This document shows positions 61,707-64,000 of a stretch of DNA of 64,000 nucleotides, piece after piece (within the stretch, counting starts at the first letter, position 1; each line of letters opens with the position of its first letter). Source of the DNA: Escherichia coli (GTDB lineage: Bacteria; Pseudomonadota; Gammaproteobacteria; Enterobacterales; Enterobacteriaceae). The stretch lies in assembly GCF_003334385.1 (NCBI RefSeq), contig NZ_QOWN01000012.1; one strand, written 5' to 3'. A model generated the notes under the pieces. It was not told the DNA's origin. It did not search any database and saw only the letters and a program-made list of their open reading frames with translations. The position numbers and the translations under genes are program-made.

Positions 61707-61780
61707 GCGGGCGTAGTTCAATGGTAGAACGAGAGCTTCCCAAGCTCTATACGAGGGTTCGATTCCCTTCGCCCGCTCCA
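61707..61780 (+). tRNA. glyU: tRNA-Gly (anticodon CCC), 74 nt with encoded CCA
   Basis: GCGGGCGTAGTTCAATGGTAGAACGAGAGCTTCCCAAGCTCTATACGAGGGTTCGATTCCCTTCGCCCGCTCCA; acceptor stem GCGGGCG/CGCCCGC, anticodon loop CTTCCCAAG, T-loop GGTTCGATTCC. Confidence 0.95.
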
Positions 61781-61914
61781 TGACCATTCTTAAAGTATCT
61801 CAACTTACTGAATCCTAAGGGATATGGCTTTAAGCCTTCCGATAGTTTTACTCACTGTAACCAACACTGTGACTAACTTTGTTGAAATTGTGAGCAGATC
61901 TAAGGTCTCAGTAC

Positions 61915-63522
61915 ATGCTCAATTCCAGAACTTATCTTTATCAGCGGAATGGCGTCTTCTATATCCGTCTTAGGATGAAGGCCGCTGGTCCCTTCCCGGC
62001 TTCGCTTCCACAACATAAACGTTATAAACTTACGTCAGTATCATTACGGACTAAGGACAGACGTACCGCTATGGCTCACTCTCGGCACATCAAGGCAGCT
62101 CTTAGGGCAATCCATGCAGACAGACCAGACACTTCCTATGAGGAAATGAGGGAACACCTTAGGGATATCGCTGAGTGGGAATTGTCTACCGGGCGTTCAG
62201 ACCTCTTTGAGTCGGACATGAGAGACCTGTATCGTGACCAGTACGGAGAACTCGGTGAGAACCTTACGGATGCCTTGGCGAGTGAACTGCTTAGTATTGA
62301 CCAGCATCGCTACATTCATGAGGCCTTGGGAGTACTTAAGGCGTGTATGAAGCGTATCGAAACGGGAGACAGTAAGCCTCTTATAGATTATGTCGATGGA
62401 TTTGATGATATTGATCGGTCGAATGGTAAGGCCCCTGCGTCCCAATCTGTAAGTACTCCAGAAGTTAAACCCGGTGTCACCGTAGAGAGCCTTTTTGAGC
62501 AATACGAAGCGGAGAATTCACAGAACTGGAAGCCTGCCACCTTAAGGGAAAACAAAGCGTCTCATACTGCGTTACTCGAAATCTTTGACCATCTGGGCCT
62601 TAATGATGATGCCAATGCGATAACACGTGCTGACATACTTAGTGTTCGTAATGTGCTCCAGCAGTTACCTAAGAATCGCAAGCAGCGTTTCAAGGATGCC
62701 ACGTTGATTGATCTTCTGAACCGTGAAGATAAGACCGATTGTCTGGATGTGGTTACTATCAATAATAAATATCTCATTAAGATGGCGGCTGTCTTCAAGT
62801 GGGCTGTACGTAATGACCTTATTAAAAAGAATATGACAGAAGGGCTGGAACTGAAGGCTCCCCAGCGTAAAGCCTCAGAGGCCCGTAATGCTTTCTCTAC
62901 GGAGCAGGTAAACCAACTATTGTCTGCCGCCCAAGTTTACTCACAGAGGCCTTCTGGTAAGCCCTATCACTATTACGTTACCGTTTTGGCTGCTATCACT
63001 GGAGCAAGACTTAATGAAGTAGCTCAGCTACAGGTCAAGGATGTCAGAGCCACAGAAGCCGGAACCGTTTATATCCATATCAATGAGGACGACAGTAGCT
63101 TACCCGGTAAGAGTATCAAGAACGCCCACAGTGATCGCTGTGTCCCACTGATCGATGGTGCCTATGGTTTTGTATTGGCGGATTTTATGAAGCTGGTAGA
63201 AGCCCGCAGAAGCGCTTTAGGTGATGATGCTATGGTGTTTGACGGTCTTCGTCTTATGAAGAATGGCTACGGTGAGCAAGTAAGCAAATGGTTTAACCGG
63301 ACGTTGTTACCGAAAGTTCTAACTGATCGTGACGGTATGGCATTCCATTCGTTCAGGCATACAGTTGCGACACAGTTAAAACAACATGGCGTCGAGTTGG
63401 CTTACGCTCAGGCGATCATGGGACATAGTTCAGGGTCTATTACATATGACCGTTACGCTAAAGAGGTTGAGGTGGATAGGTTGGTTAATGTGATGGTAGG
63501 TATTTATAAGGAGGTAAAGTAA
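61915..63522 (+). CDS. Tyrosine-type site-specific recombinase / integrase, 535 aa
   Basis: Catalytic signature spread over the C-terminal half: R (AITGARLNEVAQL), H-x-x-R (HSFRHTVATQL), H/Y box (MGHSSGSITYDRYA); long N-terminal region begins MLNSRTYLYQRNGVFYIRLRM. Confidence 0.88.
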   Translation: MLNSRTYLYQRNGVFYIRLRMKAAGPFPASLPQHKRYKLTSVSLRTKDRRTAMAHSRHIKAALRAIHADRPDTSYEEMREHLRDIAEWELSTGRSDLFESDMRDLYRDQYGELGENLTDALASELLSIDQHRYIHEALGVLKACMKRIETGDSKPLIDYVDGFDDIDRSNGKAPASQSVSTPEVKPGVTVESLFEQYEAENSQNWKPATLRENKASHTALLEIFDHLGLNDDANAITRADILSVRNVLQQLPKNRKQRFKDATLIDLLNREDKTDCLDVVTINNKYLIKMAAVFKWAVRNDLIKKNMTEGLELKAPQRKASEARNAFSTEQVNQLLSAAQVYSQRPSGKPYHYYVTVLAAITGARLNEVAQLQVKDVRATEAGTVYIHINEDDSSLPGKSIKNAHSDRCVPLIDGAYGFVLADFMKLVEARRSALGDDAMVFDGLRLMKNGYGEQVSKWFNRTLLPKVLTDRDGMAFHSFRHTVATQLKQHGVELAYAQAIMGHSSGSITYDRYAKEVEVDRLVNVMVGIYKEVK

Positions 63523-63984
63523 ATGGCAATTCCATATGAACCAGCGGAGTTCAAGAAAGAAGCTTTTAACTGTCCGTACTGTCAGGCGTATGCTAAGCAA
63601 AAGTGGGACCAATTATTTCCTTACTATGATGAAATGGCTTTCCCTATGCATGTGTCACAATGTGAGCGCTGTGAGGAGTACTCATATTGGTTTGAGGAGT
63701 CCCTCCTAATTCCTGCATCTGCGAATGTTGAAATGCCGAACCCAGACATGCCGGAGGATTGTAAGTCCGACTACATGGAAGCCAGGAGCATCGTCAATCT
63801 GTCTCCTAAAGGGGCCGCTGCACTTCTCCGTCTATGTCTTCAGAAACTGATGGTCCACTTGGGCGAGCCGGGGAAAAACATTAACGACGACATTAAGTCT
63901 CTCGTGGAAAAAGGGTTACCTCCCATAAGCGCTAACTTAAGGGTTGAACCATCTGAAGAATGCGACGCCTCGGTGCCTCGTTAA
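63523..63984 (+). CDS. Hypothetical protein: N-terminal CxxC...CxxC zinc ribbon plus DUF4145-like C-terminal helical domain, 153 aa
   Basis: CPYCQ (res 17-20) and CERCEE (res 47-52); C-terminal segment [41 protein letters not shown] resembles DUF4145; ATG directly abuts the integrase stop (TAAATG). Confidence 0.6.
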
Positions 63985-64000
63985 GACGATGCCTCGCGTT

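What the first reader, a model, noticed from the sequence alone, without database searches (positions are those of the whole stretch)
61707..64000. Integrase-bearing island inserted at tRNA-Gly (glyU); cargo lies beyond the window
Everything up to ygeR-glyU matches K-12 gene for gene and at matching protein lengths. Immediately 3' of glyU the sequence switches to a 535-aa tyrosine recombinase that I do not recall at this position in K-12, where the flank is the ETT2 remnant. tRNA 3' ends are classic integration sites, and an integrase reading away from the tRNA marks the attL side of an island. Only ~2.2 kb of the island is visible, so any novel system it carries must be looked for downstream.
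Basis: partly seen in the sequence, partly recalled or inferred. Interest (0 to 1): 0.75.

Follow-up and report, generated by a model that had tools for sequence, protein, structure and literature searches.

The report
Probable T7-phage satellite island at glyU
The window ends in the left part of a small mobile island at the tRNA-Gly gene that carries a known anti-phage gene (RAZR), here broken by an insertion sequence. Intact relatives of the island carry copies of phage T7's promoters, replication origin and DNA-packaging sites, so the island family probably spreads by hijacking T7-like phages.

Summary
tRNA-Gly(CCC) lies at 61707-61780 and is followed by an intact 535-aa tyrosine integrase at 61915-63522. 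K-12 has an empty site here. The next ORF is not a free-standing 153-aa gene. It is codons 1-134 of RAZR (PD-T7-4), a known abortive-infection RNase active against T7, cut at 63924/63925 by an IS186/IS421 end.

In the 100%-identical relative E. coli H7 the island is only 4,768 bp, bounded by a 23-bp repeat of the tRNA 3' end, and lies between glyU and ETT2. So the cargo is small and starts inside the window.

The unexpected part lies just beyond the window. Every fetched relative with enough sequence downstream of the integrase or upstream of the right end, except Pectobacterium, carries a set of T7-like features, all on the integrase strand:
- arrays of phage single-subunit RNA-polymerase promoters (T7 consensus, K11, KP32 and Kayfunavirus types)
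- an AT-rich segment that best matches T7's replication origins
- two blocks that best match the two concatemer-processing sites of T7-like phages

The left-junction block changes with the promoter type. The integrase's nearest phage relatives are integrases of T7-like phages.

My best reading is a previously undescribed family of integrative satellites of T7-like phages that act like natural T7 phagemids. This is inferred from sequence only. I found no excised or packaged forms.

The parts
61707..61780 (+). tRNA-Gly(CCC), glyU; integration target
   Evidence: ARAGORN; annotated tRNA-Gly in all relatives; glyU in K-12.
61758..61780 (+). attL core: the 23-nt 3' end of the tRNA (TTCGATTCCCTTCGCCCGCTCCA). 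In relatives it is repeated exactly at the far end of the island (attR).
   Evidence: Direct repeat D2 in L001, 20153-20181 and 24921-24949. Core positions in seven E. coli relatives give island sizes of 4,146-6,396 bp. attR itself is not in the window.
61856..61876 (+). TGTAACCAACACTGTGACTAA. A similar copy (TGTAACCATAACTGTAACCAA) lies about 60 bp inside attR in relatives. Candidate arm-type recombinase binding sites.
   Evidence: Repeat families D1 and D9 in L001. The right-end copy is conserved in all variants. The function is inferred, not tested.
61915..63522 (+). Intact 535-aa tyrosine integrase. Its closest phage homologues are integrases of T7-like (Studiervirinae) Pseudomonas phages.
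   Evidence: ORF. PHROG phrog_1 integrase, E 3.6e-46. tblastn: 31% identity over 96% of the length to phage vB_PsyP_3MF5 integrase, E 7e-59; that phage is Autographiviridae/Studiervirinae. The full-length alignment has invariant R365, H478, R481, H504 and Y514, which I interpret as the catalytic residues.
62435..62458 (+). Divergent copy (CTGCGTCCCAATCTGTAAGTACTC) of a motif embedded in the integrase linker. In relatives this motif matches the concatemer junction of T7-like phages: the right end of the terminal repeat plus ATCTGTT.
   Evidence: The M217-type island has a 20-nt exact match to T7 149-168 and a 19-nt match to K11 170-188, which K11's record annotates as 'concatemeric junction'. 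The window/L001 version still aligns best at K11's junction (score 21) but lacks ATCTGTT.
63523..63924 (+). 5' part (codons 1-134 of 209) of RAZR (PD-T7-4): zinc-finger plus DUF4145/HEPN RNase. It is truncated before the catalytic Arg and His.
   Evidence: The intact L001 protein matches PADLOC PD-T7-4 at E 2.9e-100. RAZR function and catalytic R146/H154 are from PMC13017515. Window identity to relatives ends at 63924, after ...EKGLPP.
63925..64000 (.). Terminal 76 nt of an IS186/IS421-type insertion sequence that interrupts RAZR. The junction is uncertain by 1 nt.
   Evidence: Multi-copy in 2,144 E. coli genomes. In strain 214-4 it lies at the end of an element annotated 'IS4-like element IS421 family transposase'. 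Junction comparison.

Best explanation
SHOWN. Window 61781-64000 is the left end of a small integrative element inserted into the 3' end of glyU. It comprises attL, an intact tyrosine integrase and the first 134 codons of the anti-phage RNase RAZR (PD-T7-4), then the end of an IS186/IS421 copy that disrupts RAZR. The intact element in the 100%-identical relative (E. coli H7) is 4,768 bp, with this order:
- attL
- int
- RAZR
- two tandem T7-type promoters
- a conserved ~115-nt block
- an AT-rich stretch
- an Ant/KilA-N-type gene
- a small variable gene
- a conserved right end
- attR

INFERRED. The family is a satellite of T7-like virulent phages and behaves as a natural integrative T7 phagemid. 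The proposed steps are as follows.
1. On infection, the phage's own RNA polymerase fires the island's promoters. Some islands carry promoters for several phage groups: T7, K11, KP32 or Kayfunavirus.
2. This expresses the Ant/KilA-N gene (a possible excision or regulatory factor) and primes replication at the adjoining T7-origin-like AT-rich region, using the phage replisome.
3. Once the island is circular or concatemeric, the same transcription reads through attP, int and RAZR.
4. Two blocks that mimic the phage's concatemer-processing sites let the phage terminase cut and package island concatemers into normal capsids. One block resembles the left junction (pacB-like) and lies ~310 bp before attR. 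The other resembles the concatemer junction with its polymerase-pause signal and is embedded in the int linker. About 8-9 units would make ~40 kb.
5. The ~1-kb terminal redundancy would contain attP, which would allow circularisation and Int-mediated insertion at glyU in a new host.
6. RAZR, or whatever gene occupies that slot, would serve as the helper-interference and host-protection cargo.

The window's copy looks impaired. RAZR is broken, the closest relative's promoters deviate from the T7 consensus by 2 and 4 of 23 positions, and the junction motif is divergent.
For: Island and RAZR
- tRNA and ORFs.
- 100% identity to H7 up to base 63924.
- attL/attR repeat.
- Empty site in K-12.
- PADLOC PD-T7-4, E 2.9e-100.
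- RAZR paper. [quoted passage not shown]
- IS end.

Promoters
- A perfect T7 consensus promoter (TAATACGACTCACTATAGGGAGA) plus a class-II-like second copy occur in O103:H2 12009; none are expected by chance.
- All seven fetched E. coli variants carry 2-4 such promoters, all on the + strand just after gene 2.
- The matches fall on T7's annotated promoters.
- The M217-type island also carries K11's annotated phi9/phi10/phi13 promoter sequence exactly, and a KP32-group promoter found 12-13 times per Przondovirus genome.
- Homologous islands in 9 other Enterobacterales genera carry promoters with different specificity regions. Pectobacterium's locus showed none.
- The Citrobacter type matches Kayfunavirus phage promoters.
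- Of 15 metagenomic copies, 9 show promoter arrays on the + strand and none show any on the - strand; the rest have under ~2 kb upstream.
- T7-consensus hits occur in 213 of 5,426 E. coli genomes, the same count as hits to the island leader region.

Origin
- The best local alignments of the island's AT-rich segment against the whole T7 genome fall at 5801-6200 (after phi1.1A/B) and 401-800 (after phiOL), scoring 20-33 against a ~16 background. In K11 the top three windows include those starting at 401 (phiOL) and 5801 (phi1.05), and for two of four variants the phiOR window, at weaker margins (16-30).

Packaging sites
- The 41-nt block after the last gene matches T7 39747-39787 at 32-33 of 41 positions (next best 23-24). 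That interval spans the start of the terminal repeat. The block lands on the same place in K11.
- The int-linker block best matches the right end of the terminal repeat and the annotated concatemeric junction.
- Covariation: islands with T7-type promoters hit the T7/K11 left junction and not Dev2's. Islands with Kayfunavirus-type promoters hit Dev2's left junction (scores 20-22) and not T7's or K11's.

Other
- The integrase belongs to a family found in T7-like phages.
- T7 is known to replicate, package and transduce plasmids that carry a T7 origin, pac site and terminal repeat (PMC13236587 and PMC9860248, both citing Chung & Hinkle 1990).
Against: - There is no direct evidence of excision, replication or encapsidation. 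The attP junction pattern had 0 hits in IMG/VR. No E. coli genome of 5,426 holds a contiguous attP or tandem form. All 15 metagenomic copies are in the chromosomal configuration.
- No excisionase, replication initiator or terminase-redirecting gene was recognised.
- RAZR aborts T7 infection, which seems at odds with depending on T7 for particles.
- The sequence between the two junction mimics (~1 kb, containing attP and the 5' part of int) is unrelated to a phage terminal repeat. Engineered T7 phagemids include a real terminal repeat.
- The junction motif lies in coding sequence. For some genera it is no better than background by alignment score.
- The promoters, origin-like region and left-junction block are outside the window. 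Whether they still follow the IS in this strain is unknown.
- The H7/window variant's first promoter has no exact counterpart in known phages; the best match is 88%.
Confidence: 0.55

Rival explanations
1. Infection-triggered defence cassette. The phage-polymerase promoters act only as sensors, so the incoming phage's RNA polymerase transcribes toxic or interfering cargo (KilA-N/Ant-like proteins, small membrane proteins). The origin-like and junction-like sequences act as decoys that soak up the phage polymerase, replisome or terminase. The island moves by other means.
For: Promoters point only at the variable cargo genes. The cargo slots are variable, as in defence hotspots. The island carries a proven anti-T7 gene. 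One variant encodes a 105-aa hydrophobic protein. No packaged or excised forms were found.
Against: This reading does not explain why both concatemer-processing sites are mimicked in the correct relative orientation, why the left-junction block covaries with promoter type, or why the integrase family is the one used by T7-like phages. The cargo proteins have no PADLOC hit except a weak PD-T4-2_B similarity.
Confidence: 0.25
2. Relic of a temperate T7-like prophage. The integrase, promoters, origin and junction sequences are leftovers of a decayed phage genome and have no current function.
For: T7-like phages with a homologous integrase exist. All the T7-like features are of the kind found near the ends of a T7-type genome.
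Against: No RNA polymerase, capsid or other phage gene remains in any of more than 25 copies. The element is conserved as a compact 4.1-6.4 kb unit with an intact integrase and att sites across more than 10 genera. Single islands combine promoters of three different phage groups. The junction motif is written into the integrase reading frame and not left as a terminal repeat. In phage 3MF5 the integrase is oriented opposite to the phage promoters, unlike in the island.
Confidence: 0.1
3. Ordinary tRNA-linked integrase islet carrying one defence gene. The T7-like sequences would be chance or assembly contamination.
For: Only the general commonness of integrase-plus-defence islets at tRNA genes.
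Against: Zero consensus matches are expected by chance in 42 kb. The features recur with natural variation in hundreds of independent complete genomes, in metagenomes and in other genera, always in the same position and strand. The flanking sequence is island DNA, not vector.
Confidence: 0.02

Closest known systems
RAZR / PD-T7-4 (Vassallo et al. 2022, PMC9519451; Nature 2026, PMC13017515)
   Same: Gene 2 of the island is this protein (PADLOC E 2.9e-100). It has an N-terminal Cys4 zinc finger and a DUF4145/HEPN domain. The known association with an overlapping integrase gene is reproduced here, with the int stop abutting the RAZR start.
   Different: The window's copy is truncated at codon 134 by an IS, before the catalytic Arg and His. 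Neither paper's main text mentions native phage promoters or packaging-site mimics in the locus (term searches).
PICMI, phage-inducible chromosomal minimalist islands of Vibrionaceae (PMC10803314)
   Same: Very small integrative elements (~6 kb against 4.1-6.4 kb here). The helper is a virulent phage, there are no capsid-remodelling genes, packaging is as ~8-unit concatemers in full-size capsids, and they carry host-protective cargo. The proposed life cycle here is the same in outline.
   Different: PICMIs integrate next to fis and have core genes int, alpA and a primase. They appear to be packaged by a headful mechanism with random ends. The glyU islands have no alpA or primase. They appear instead to borrow everything in cis: phage-polymerase promoters, a phage-type origin and site-specific junction mimics. 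Packaging is demonstrated for PICMI and only inferred here.
Engineered T7 phagemids / transducing plasmids (Chung & Hinkle 1990, as cited in PMC13236587 and PMC9860248)
   Same: The same parts list: a T7 origin (T7 promoter plus AT-rich region) and the concatemer junction/pac sites suffice for replication, packaging and transduction by T7. The island carries sequence matches to each.
   Different: The phagemids are laboratory constructs with authentic T7 segments, including the terminal repeat and a plasmid origin. The island is natural and integrates through a tyrosine recombinase. Its site mimics are 65-80% identical, not identical, and it has no phage terminal repeat.
P4-like satellites carrying defence hotspots (Rousset et al. 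2022, PMC9122126)
   Same: An E. coli satellite that integrates at a tRNA gene and carries variable anti-phage cargo. Helper late transcription activates satellite genes (from general knowledge of P2/P4).
   Different: P4 is ~11 kb and encodes its own primase/helicase, capsid-size and regulatory proteins, and its helper is temperate P2. None of those genes is present here, and no PHROG or NCBIfam hit points to them.
Integrases of T7-like phages with temperate features (e.g. Pseudomonas phage vB_PsyP_3MF5, Warsawvirus)
   Same: Full-length homology, 31-35% identity, including the long N-terminal region.
   Different: Those integrases sit in complete 40-kb phage genomes next to the right terminal repeat and in the opposite orientation to the phage promoters. 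Here the integrase is the only large gene of a 4-6 kb element.

Membership tests
tRNA-integrated genomic island with tyrosine recombinase | Insertion at the 3' end of a tRNA gene, with the integrase adjacent and reading away from it | tested here: met
   tRNA-Gly 61707-61780; int 61915-63522 on the same strand.
tRNA-integrated genomic island with tyrosine recombinase | Direct repeat of the tRNA 3' end at the far boundary (attR) | tested here: met
   Not visible in the window. In the 100%-identical relative a 23-nt exact repeat lies 4,768 bp downstream, and the same holds in six other E. coli variants.
tRNA-integrated genomic island with tyrosine recombinase | Absent from related genomes (empty site) | tested here: met
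   K-12 MG1655 has ygeQ, 155 bp, then glyU. Only 134 of 5,426 genomes hold at least 80% of the query.
tRNA-integrated genomic island with tyrosine recombinase | Recombinase with the tyrosine-recombinase catalytic residues | tested here: met
   Integrase PHROG/NCBIfam matches. Invariant R365, H478, R481, H504 and Y514 in the alignment; their catalytic role is my interpretation.
RAZR / PD-T7-4 | Sequence match to the family profile (zinc finger plus DUF4145) | tested here: met
   The intact relative matches PADLOC PDLC04109 at E 2.9e-100 over residues 4-207. The window's residues 1-134 are identical to it.
RAZR / PD-T7-4 | Intact HEPN catalytic Arg and His (R146/H154 in the published protein) | tested here: not met
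   The window copy diverges into IS sequence after residue 134 (...EKGLPP). The motif CRIVGNQAVH at 143-152 of the intact protein is missing from the ORF.
RAZR / PD-T7-4 | Abortive-infection defence against T7/T3, triggered by portal rings | not testable with these tools
   Taken from PMC13017515. Expected to be lost in this strain.
Phage satellite (helper-dependent integrative element) | Induction by a specific helper phage | tested here: inconclusive
   Phage-polymerase promoters of defined specificity are present in nearly all relatives examined, which gives a plausible induction route. No expression data are available.
Phage satellite (helper-dependent integrative element) | Replication during helper infection | tested here: inconclusive
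   The AT-rich segment after the promoters best matches T7 origin regions. No replication protein is encoded.
Phage satellite (helper-dependent integrative element) | Packaging signal recognised by helper terminase | tested here: inconclusive
   Two blocks best-match the left junction and the concatemer junction of T7, K11 and Dev2, and the left-junction block covaries with promoter type. Function is not shown.
Phage satellite (helper-dependent integrative element) | Element DNA found in virions, or in excised/concatemeric form | tested here: not met
   No attP junction in IMG/VR, in 5,426 E. coli genomes, or in 15 metagenomic copies. These data sets are poorly suited to the question, so absence is weak evidence.
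PICMI | Core genes int, alpA and primase; integration next to fis | tested here: not met
   No alpA or primase matches. Integration is at glyU.
IS186/IS421 (IS4 family) | Terminal sequence identical to known copies, adjacent to the IS421-family transposase | tested here: met
   The 76-nt end is multi-copy in 2,144 genomes. It is identical to the end of an annotated IS421-family element. Only the end is in the window.

The most novel reading that the evidence does not exclude
These 4-6 kb glyU islands are the first described satellites of T7-like (Autographiviridae) phages. They are minimalist elements that encode almost nothing for their own propagation and instead copy the helper's cis signals: its RNA-polymerase promoters (sometimes for several phage genera at once), its promoter-primed origin and both concatemer-processing sites. 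One of those sites is overprinted on the integrase reading frame. They ferry anti-phage genes such as RAZR between Enterobacterales.
Probability: 0.45. Interest if true: 0.9.

Novelty: new variant of a known kind. Interest (0 to 1): 0.78.

Why it matters
**What is ordinary.** The window itself holds an integrase island with a known, and here broken, defence gene.

**What is not ordinary.** The island family behind it is unusual in several ways.
- T7 is the textbook strictly lytic phage and is generally regarded as having no satellites.
- E. coli chromosomes are usually assumed to lack T7 promoters. Yet about 4% of complete E. coli genomes carry perfect ones, apparently mostly in this island.
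- If the satellite reading holds, it would explain how RAZR and its neighbouring cargo spread between genera. An example is a 95%-identical island shared by E. coli and K. pneumoniae.
- It would provide a natural counterpart to engineered T7 phagemids.
- It would show a mobile element built almost entirely from mimicry of a helper's cis signals, including a signal written inside a protein-coding linker.
- It would matter for T7-, K11- and KP32-type therapeutic phages, which could mobilise these islands.
- It also bears on T7-expression strains derived from island-bearing backgrounds.

Even under the rival reading, in which the promoters only sense infection, natural defence genes wired directly to an invading phage's own polymerase would be new as far as my searches show.

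Tried and rejected
**Searches that found nothing**
- blastn of the cargo and leader region against 50,697 phage records found no extended homology. Similarity to phages is confined to short cis elements.
- Rfam found no known RNA family in the island apart from the tRNA.
- The sigma-70 promoter and terminator scans found nothing above shuffled controls.
- PADLOC, PHROGs and NCBIfam gave no function for the last cargo gene(s) or for the alternative gene-2 of strain rl0044.

**Searches for excised or packaged forms**
- The attP pattern was absent from IMG/VR.
- A synthetic attP query found no contiguous match in any E. coli genome.
- The metagenome scan used a 16-mer that was too short. Of 120 loci, 105 were chance hits. 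The 15 true islands were all chromosomal.

**Leads dropped or left open**
- Small fecal-virome contigs (MT839987, MT839295, MT836560) carry distant integrase homologues at 25-28% identity. I fetched them but did not pursue them because they are too remote.
- I first read the window/H7 junction motif (ATCTGTA) as dead. Other genera and phage Dev2 also use ATCTGTA, so this is left open.
- I found no exact phage counterpart for the H7-type first promoter; the best match is 88%.

**Literature**
- Six searches found no description of T7-promoter-bearing islands or T7 satellites.
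Full report
**1. What is in the window**

ARAGORN finds a single tRNA-Gly(CCC) at 61707-61780 (+). It follows xdhB, xdhA and actS (ygeR), in the K-12 order. A 535-aa ORF (61915-63522, +) begins 134 bp after the tRNA. It is followed without a gap by a second ORF (63523-63984).

The first ORF is a tyrosine integrase. It matches PHROG phrog_1 at E 3.6e-46 and gives weak XerC/XerD-type NCBIfam hits. The alignment has invariant R365, H478, R481, H504 and Y514, which I read as the catalytic residues. 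GC falls only modestly, to 0.45-0.49 from 0.51-0.55 in xdhAB.

K-12 MG1655 has ygeQ, 155 bp, then glyU, with nothing between. Of 5,426 complete E. coli genomes, 134 hold at least 80% of window 61600-64000.

**2. The end of the window is an insertion sequence**

Identity to the best relatives (100% for strains H7 and SY3626) stops at window 63924. The last 76 bases are multi-copy in 2,144 genomes. They are identical to the end of an element annotated as an IS4-like IS421-family transposon, that is IS186/IS421. The '153-aa ORF' is therefore the first 134 codons of a 209-aa gene fused to IS sequence.

**3. The island in intact relatives**

In E. coli H7 (L001) the element runs from the tRNA end to an exact 23-nt repeat of the tRNA 3' end, 4,768 bp downstream. 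ygeQ and ETT2 follow. Six further E. coli variants have the same repeat. Their island sizes are 4,146-6,396 bp, or 5,608 bp where an IS3 has inserted. The island sits between glyU and ETT2, not in place of ETT2.

**4. Gene 2 is a known defence gene**

The intact 209-aa protein matches PADLOC PD-T7-4 at E 2.9e-100. PD-T7-4 was found by functional selection, and its authors noted that it 'often overlaps an integrase gene' (PMC9519451). It has since been renamed RAZR. RAZR is a zinc-finger plus DUF4145/HEPN RNase that acts by abortive infection. It is switched on by assembling around the portal rings of T7, T3 and SECphi18, or around Gp77 of SECphi27. Its catalytic residues are R146 and H154 (PMC13017515). 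In the window the IS cuts the gene after residue 134, before the corresponding CRIVGNQAVH motif. This copy should be inactive.

**5. Phage promoters**

Reading the relatives' sequence just beyond the window's end, I noticed two tandem sequences that look like T7 RNA-polymerase promoters.
- O103:H2 12009 (L002) has the perfect 23-nt T7 consensus and a class-II-like second copy 109 bp later. H7 has versions with 2 and 4 mismatches. No match is expected by chance in 42 kb.
- BLAST against the T7 genome places these matches exclusively on T7's annotated promoters.
- All seven E. coli variants carry 2-4 such promoters, always on the integrase strand and immediately after gene 2.
- The M217-type island is 95% identical to the island of K. 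pneumoniae ATCC 13883. It has four promoters: two of K11 type (one identical to K11's annotated phi9/10/13), one perfect T7, and one that matches the promoter repeated 12-13 times in KP32-group Przondovirus genomes.
- A scan of one genome per species with an integrase alignment found homologous islands (65-86% integrase identity) in Rouxiella, Lonsdalea, Klebsiella, Citrobacter, Buttiauxella, Shimwellia, Enterobacter, Proteus, Pectobacterium, Edaphovirga, Serratia and Morganella.
- Where enough downstream DNA is present they carry promoter-like sites with the conserved CACTATAGG core but different upstream specificity regions, again only on the + strand. The exception is Pectobacterium, where none was detected.
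- The Citrobacter type matches Kayfunavirus (Dev2, SFPH2, EP1) promoters. The Proteus type is closest to ICP3/N4-type T7-like vibriophage promoters, at 91%.
- Of 15 metagenomic copies, nine show promoter arrays on the + strand and none shows any on the - strand. The others have under ~2 kb of sequence upstream.
- T7-consensus hits occur in 213 of 5,426 E. coli genomes, the same number that match the island's leader region. The few exceptions I could see are engineered strains.

**6. Origin-like region**

Downstream of the promoters lie three features:
- a ~115-nt block that is nearly invariant among variants otherwise 15-20% divergent
- a 75-85% AT stretch with repeated CTTAAAG-type motifs
- a conserved hairpin, with one compensatory variant, just before gene 3

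I aligned the AT-rich stretch against whole phage genomes on both strands. In T7 the two best windows are 5801-6200, immediately after phi1.1A/phi1.1B, and 401-800, after phiOL, with scores of 20-33 against ~16 for the next hits. In K11 the windows starting at 401 (phiOL) and 5801 (phi1.05) are among the top three for all variants, and the phiOR window appears for two of four, at weaker margins (16-30). From general knowledge, the phi1.1A/B promoters plus the adjacent AT-rich segment form T7's primary origin, and phiOL and phiOR are secondary 'replication promoters'.

**7. Packaging-site mimics**

*Left junction.* A conserved 41-nt block directly after the last gene, ~310 bp before attR, reads TTAAAATTTCCCACAAAAATCTCAGCGTCTA|TCTAATAGTA. 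Its best ungapped match in the whole T7 concatemer is 39747-39787, at 32-33 of 41 positions (next best 23-24). That interval spans the first base of the terminal repeat, which is the left-end cleavage site and the region described as pacB-proximal. In K11 it lands on the equivalent site.

*Concatemer junction.* A second block lies inside the integrase gene, in a variable Ser/Val-rich linker. In the M217 and Klebsiella islands it is a 20-nt exact match to T7 149-168 (CTCTGTGTCCCT|ATCTGTTA) and a 19-nt match to K11 170-188. This is the right end of the terminal repeat plus the site K11's record annotates as 'concatemeric junction'. From memory, ATCTGTT is the class II pause signal at which T7 RNA polymerase must pause for concatemer processing. 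Some form of C[CT][CT]TATCTGT[AT] is kept at this position in nearly all genera, although the surrounding protein sequence varies.

Both blocks have the same orientation as the promoters.

**8. Covariation**

Phage Dev2 (Kayfunavirus) has the left junction ...GATGAGTTTTGGACCAAAAGTTTGAGACCACA|TCTCACAGTT and the junction ...GAGTCCCT|ATCTGTATCAGCC.
- Islands with Kayfunavirus-type promoters (Citrobacter, Buttiauxella, Enterobacter) have a left block GATGAGTTTTGACTGAAAAATGTGAGACCCTA|TCTAATAC. Its best hit in Dev2 is exactly that junction (scores 20-22), and it finds nothing in T7 or K11.
- Islands with T7 or K11 promoters do the reverse (scores 24-26 at T7, 16.5-20 at K11, background in Dev2).
- The Citrobacter integrase linker reads TCCCTATCTGTATCA, identical over 15 nt to Dev2's junction. 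On its own this does not exceed background.
- The Proteus linker aligns best (score 27) to Dev2's junction, including the short CCTCAAGTC-type repeats that follow it.

The left-junction block therefore tracks the promoter type.

**9. The integrase lineage**

The closest phage homologues are integrases of Pseudomonas phages vB_PsyP_3MF5, phTUNS and G11, at 29-31% identity over 96% of the length (E 7e-59 for 3MF5). 3MF5 is a Studiervirinae (T7-like) phage, with the integrase next to its right terminal repeat.

**10. Interpretation**

T7 is known to replicate, package and transduce plasmids that carry a T7 origin, a pac site and the terminal repeat. The island carries recognisable counterparts of the origin and of both processing sites, driven by the phage's own promoters, plus an integrase and att sites.

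The simplest account is a helper-dependent integrative element, a satellite of T7-like virulent phages packaged as concatemers in normal capsids. The closest described analogue is PICMI in Vibrionaceae. PICMI, however, has its own alpA and primase and shows headful-type random ends.

In a circular or concatemeric island the left-junction mimic, attP, the 5' part of int and the concatemer-junction mimic lie within ~1 kb. A packaged molecule would then carry a ~1-kb terminal redundancy containing attP. In that form phage-polymerase transcription would also run through int and RAZR.

Gene 3 is a KilA-N or Ant-like DNA-binding protein in six of the seven variants. It could be the excision or regulatory factor; that is speculation.

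**11. Caveats**

Everything in sections 5-9 lies outside the window and is inferred from sequence.
- I found no excised, tandem or virion-borne form.
- No replication or excision accessory gene was recognised.
- RAZR's abortive action seems to conflict with dependence on the helper.
- There is no true terminal repeat.
- The window/H7 variant has weakened promoters with no exact phage counterpart, and a divergent junction motif.

Rival readings, in order of plausibility:
- The promoters act as infection sensors for defensive cargo and the other mimics act as decoys.
- The island is a relic of a temperate T7-like prophage. This is hard to reconcile with multi-phage promoter arrays, a junction written into the integrase frame, and conservation as a compact unit across more than 10 genera.

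**12. Novelty**

The integrase-RAZR pairing is published. Six literature searches and term searches of the two RAZR/PD-T7-4 papers found no mention of native phage-polymerase promoters, origin mimics or junction mimics in this or any island, and no satellite of a T7-like phage. I rate the window feature itself as known. I rate the island family as a new variant of the satellite kind, pending experiments.

Noticed in passing
window 63925-64000: End of an IS186/IS421 copy inserted into the RAZR gene.
   Followed up: yes
L005 4596-4760 (E. coli ET881) and L006: In these variants the RAZR slot holds no gene. It holds ~12 tandem copies of a 13-nt unit (ATGRCCATAGGCG), followed by CCTATGTGGTCC-type repeats and duplicated perfect T7 promoters. 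The function is unknown. Short repeat arrays next to genome ends are typical of T7-like phages.
   Followed up: partly
L001 22700-22815; L002 22740-22850 (alignment A1 columns ~244-360): A ~115-nt non-coding block (AACCGTAACTTATCGCATCCTTTCAGGGGCGGGATGACC...GGGTCAGTCGATAAGTGAATAGC) is nearly invariant among island variants that differ by 15-20% elsewhere. It has no Rfam match and no known role. It might be a cis site or a phage-polymerase-transcribed RNA.
   Followed up: partly
L001 ~23090-23115; L002 ~23105-23130 (alignment A1 columns ~1075-1100): A conserved hairpin sits just upstream of gene 3. It reads GGTCTCCC-TTCGCTT-GGGGACT in most variants and GGTCCTC-CTTCATTT-GAGGACC in H7, so the stem is kept through compensatory changes.
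   Followed up: no
L004 1267-4378 (E. coli 5735): A second, unrelated integrase and prophage-like genes lie directly upstream of this island's attL repeat. glyU can therefore hold tandem elements.
   Followed up: no
L007 (E. coli M217) vs L020 (K. pneumoniae ATCC 13883): The 6.4-kb four-promoter island is 95% identical between E. coli and the K. pneumoniae type strain, which implies recent transfer between genera. This island type appears in many carbapenem-resistant E. coli clinical isolates in the hit lists.
   Followed up: partly
L015 628-891; L017 5588-5851 (IMG/VR contigs from isolate genomes): Three perfect T7 consensus promoters in tandem at ~120-bp spacing, upstream of the same conserved block. 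The glyU att core is not in the fetched stretch, so the island may use another integration site there.
   Followed up: no
L011-L013 (MT836560, MT839987, MT839295; human fecal virome contigs of 4.4-9.7 kb): Small virome contigs encode distant homologues (25-28% identity) of the island integrase. They might be unrelated small integrative elements found in virus-like particles.
   Followed up: no
L002 24400-25700: An IS3-family element (with its ALIL frameshift pseudoknot, Rfam RF01497) is inserted in the right arm of the O103:H2 island, between the conserved TGTAACCATAACTGTAACC site and attR.
   Followed up: partly
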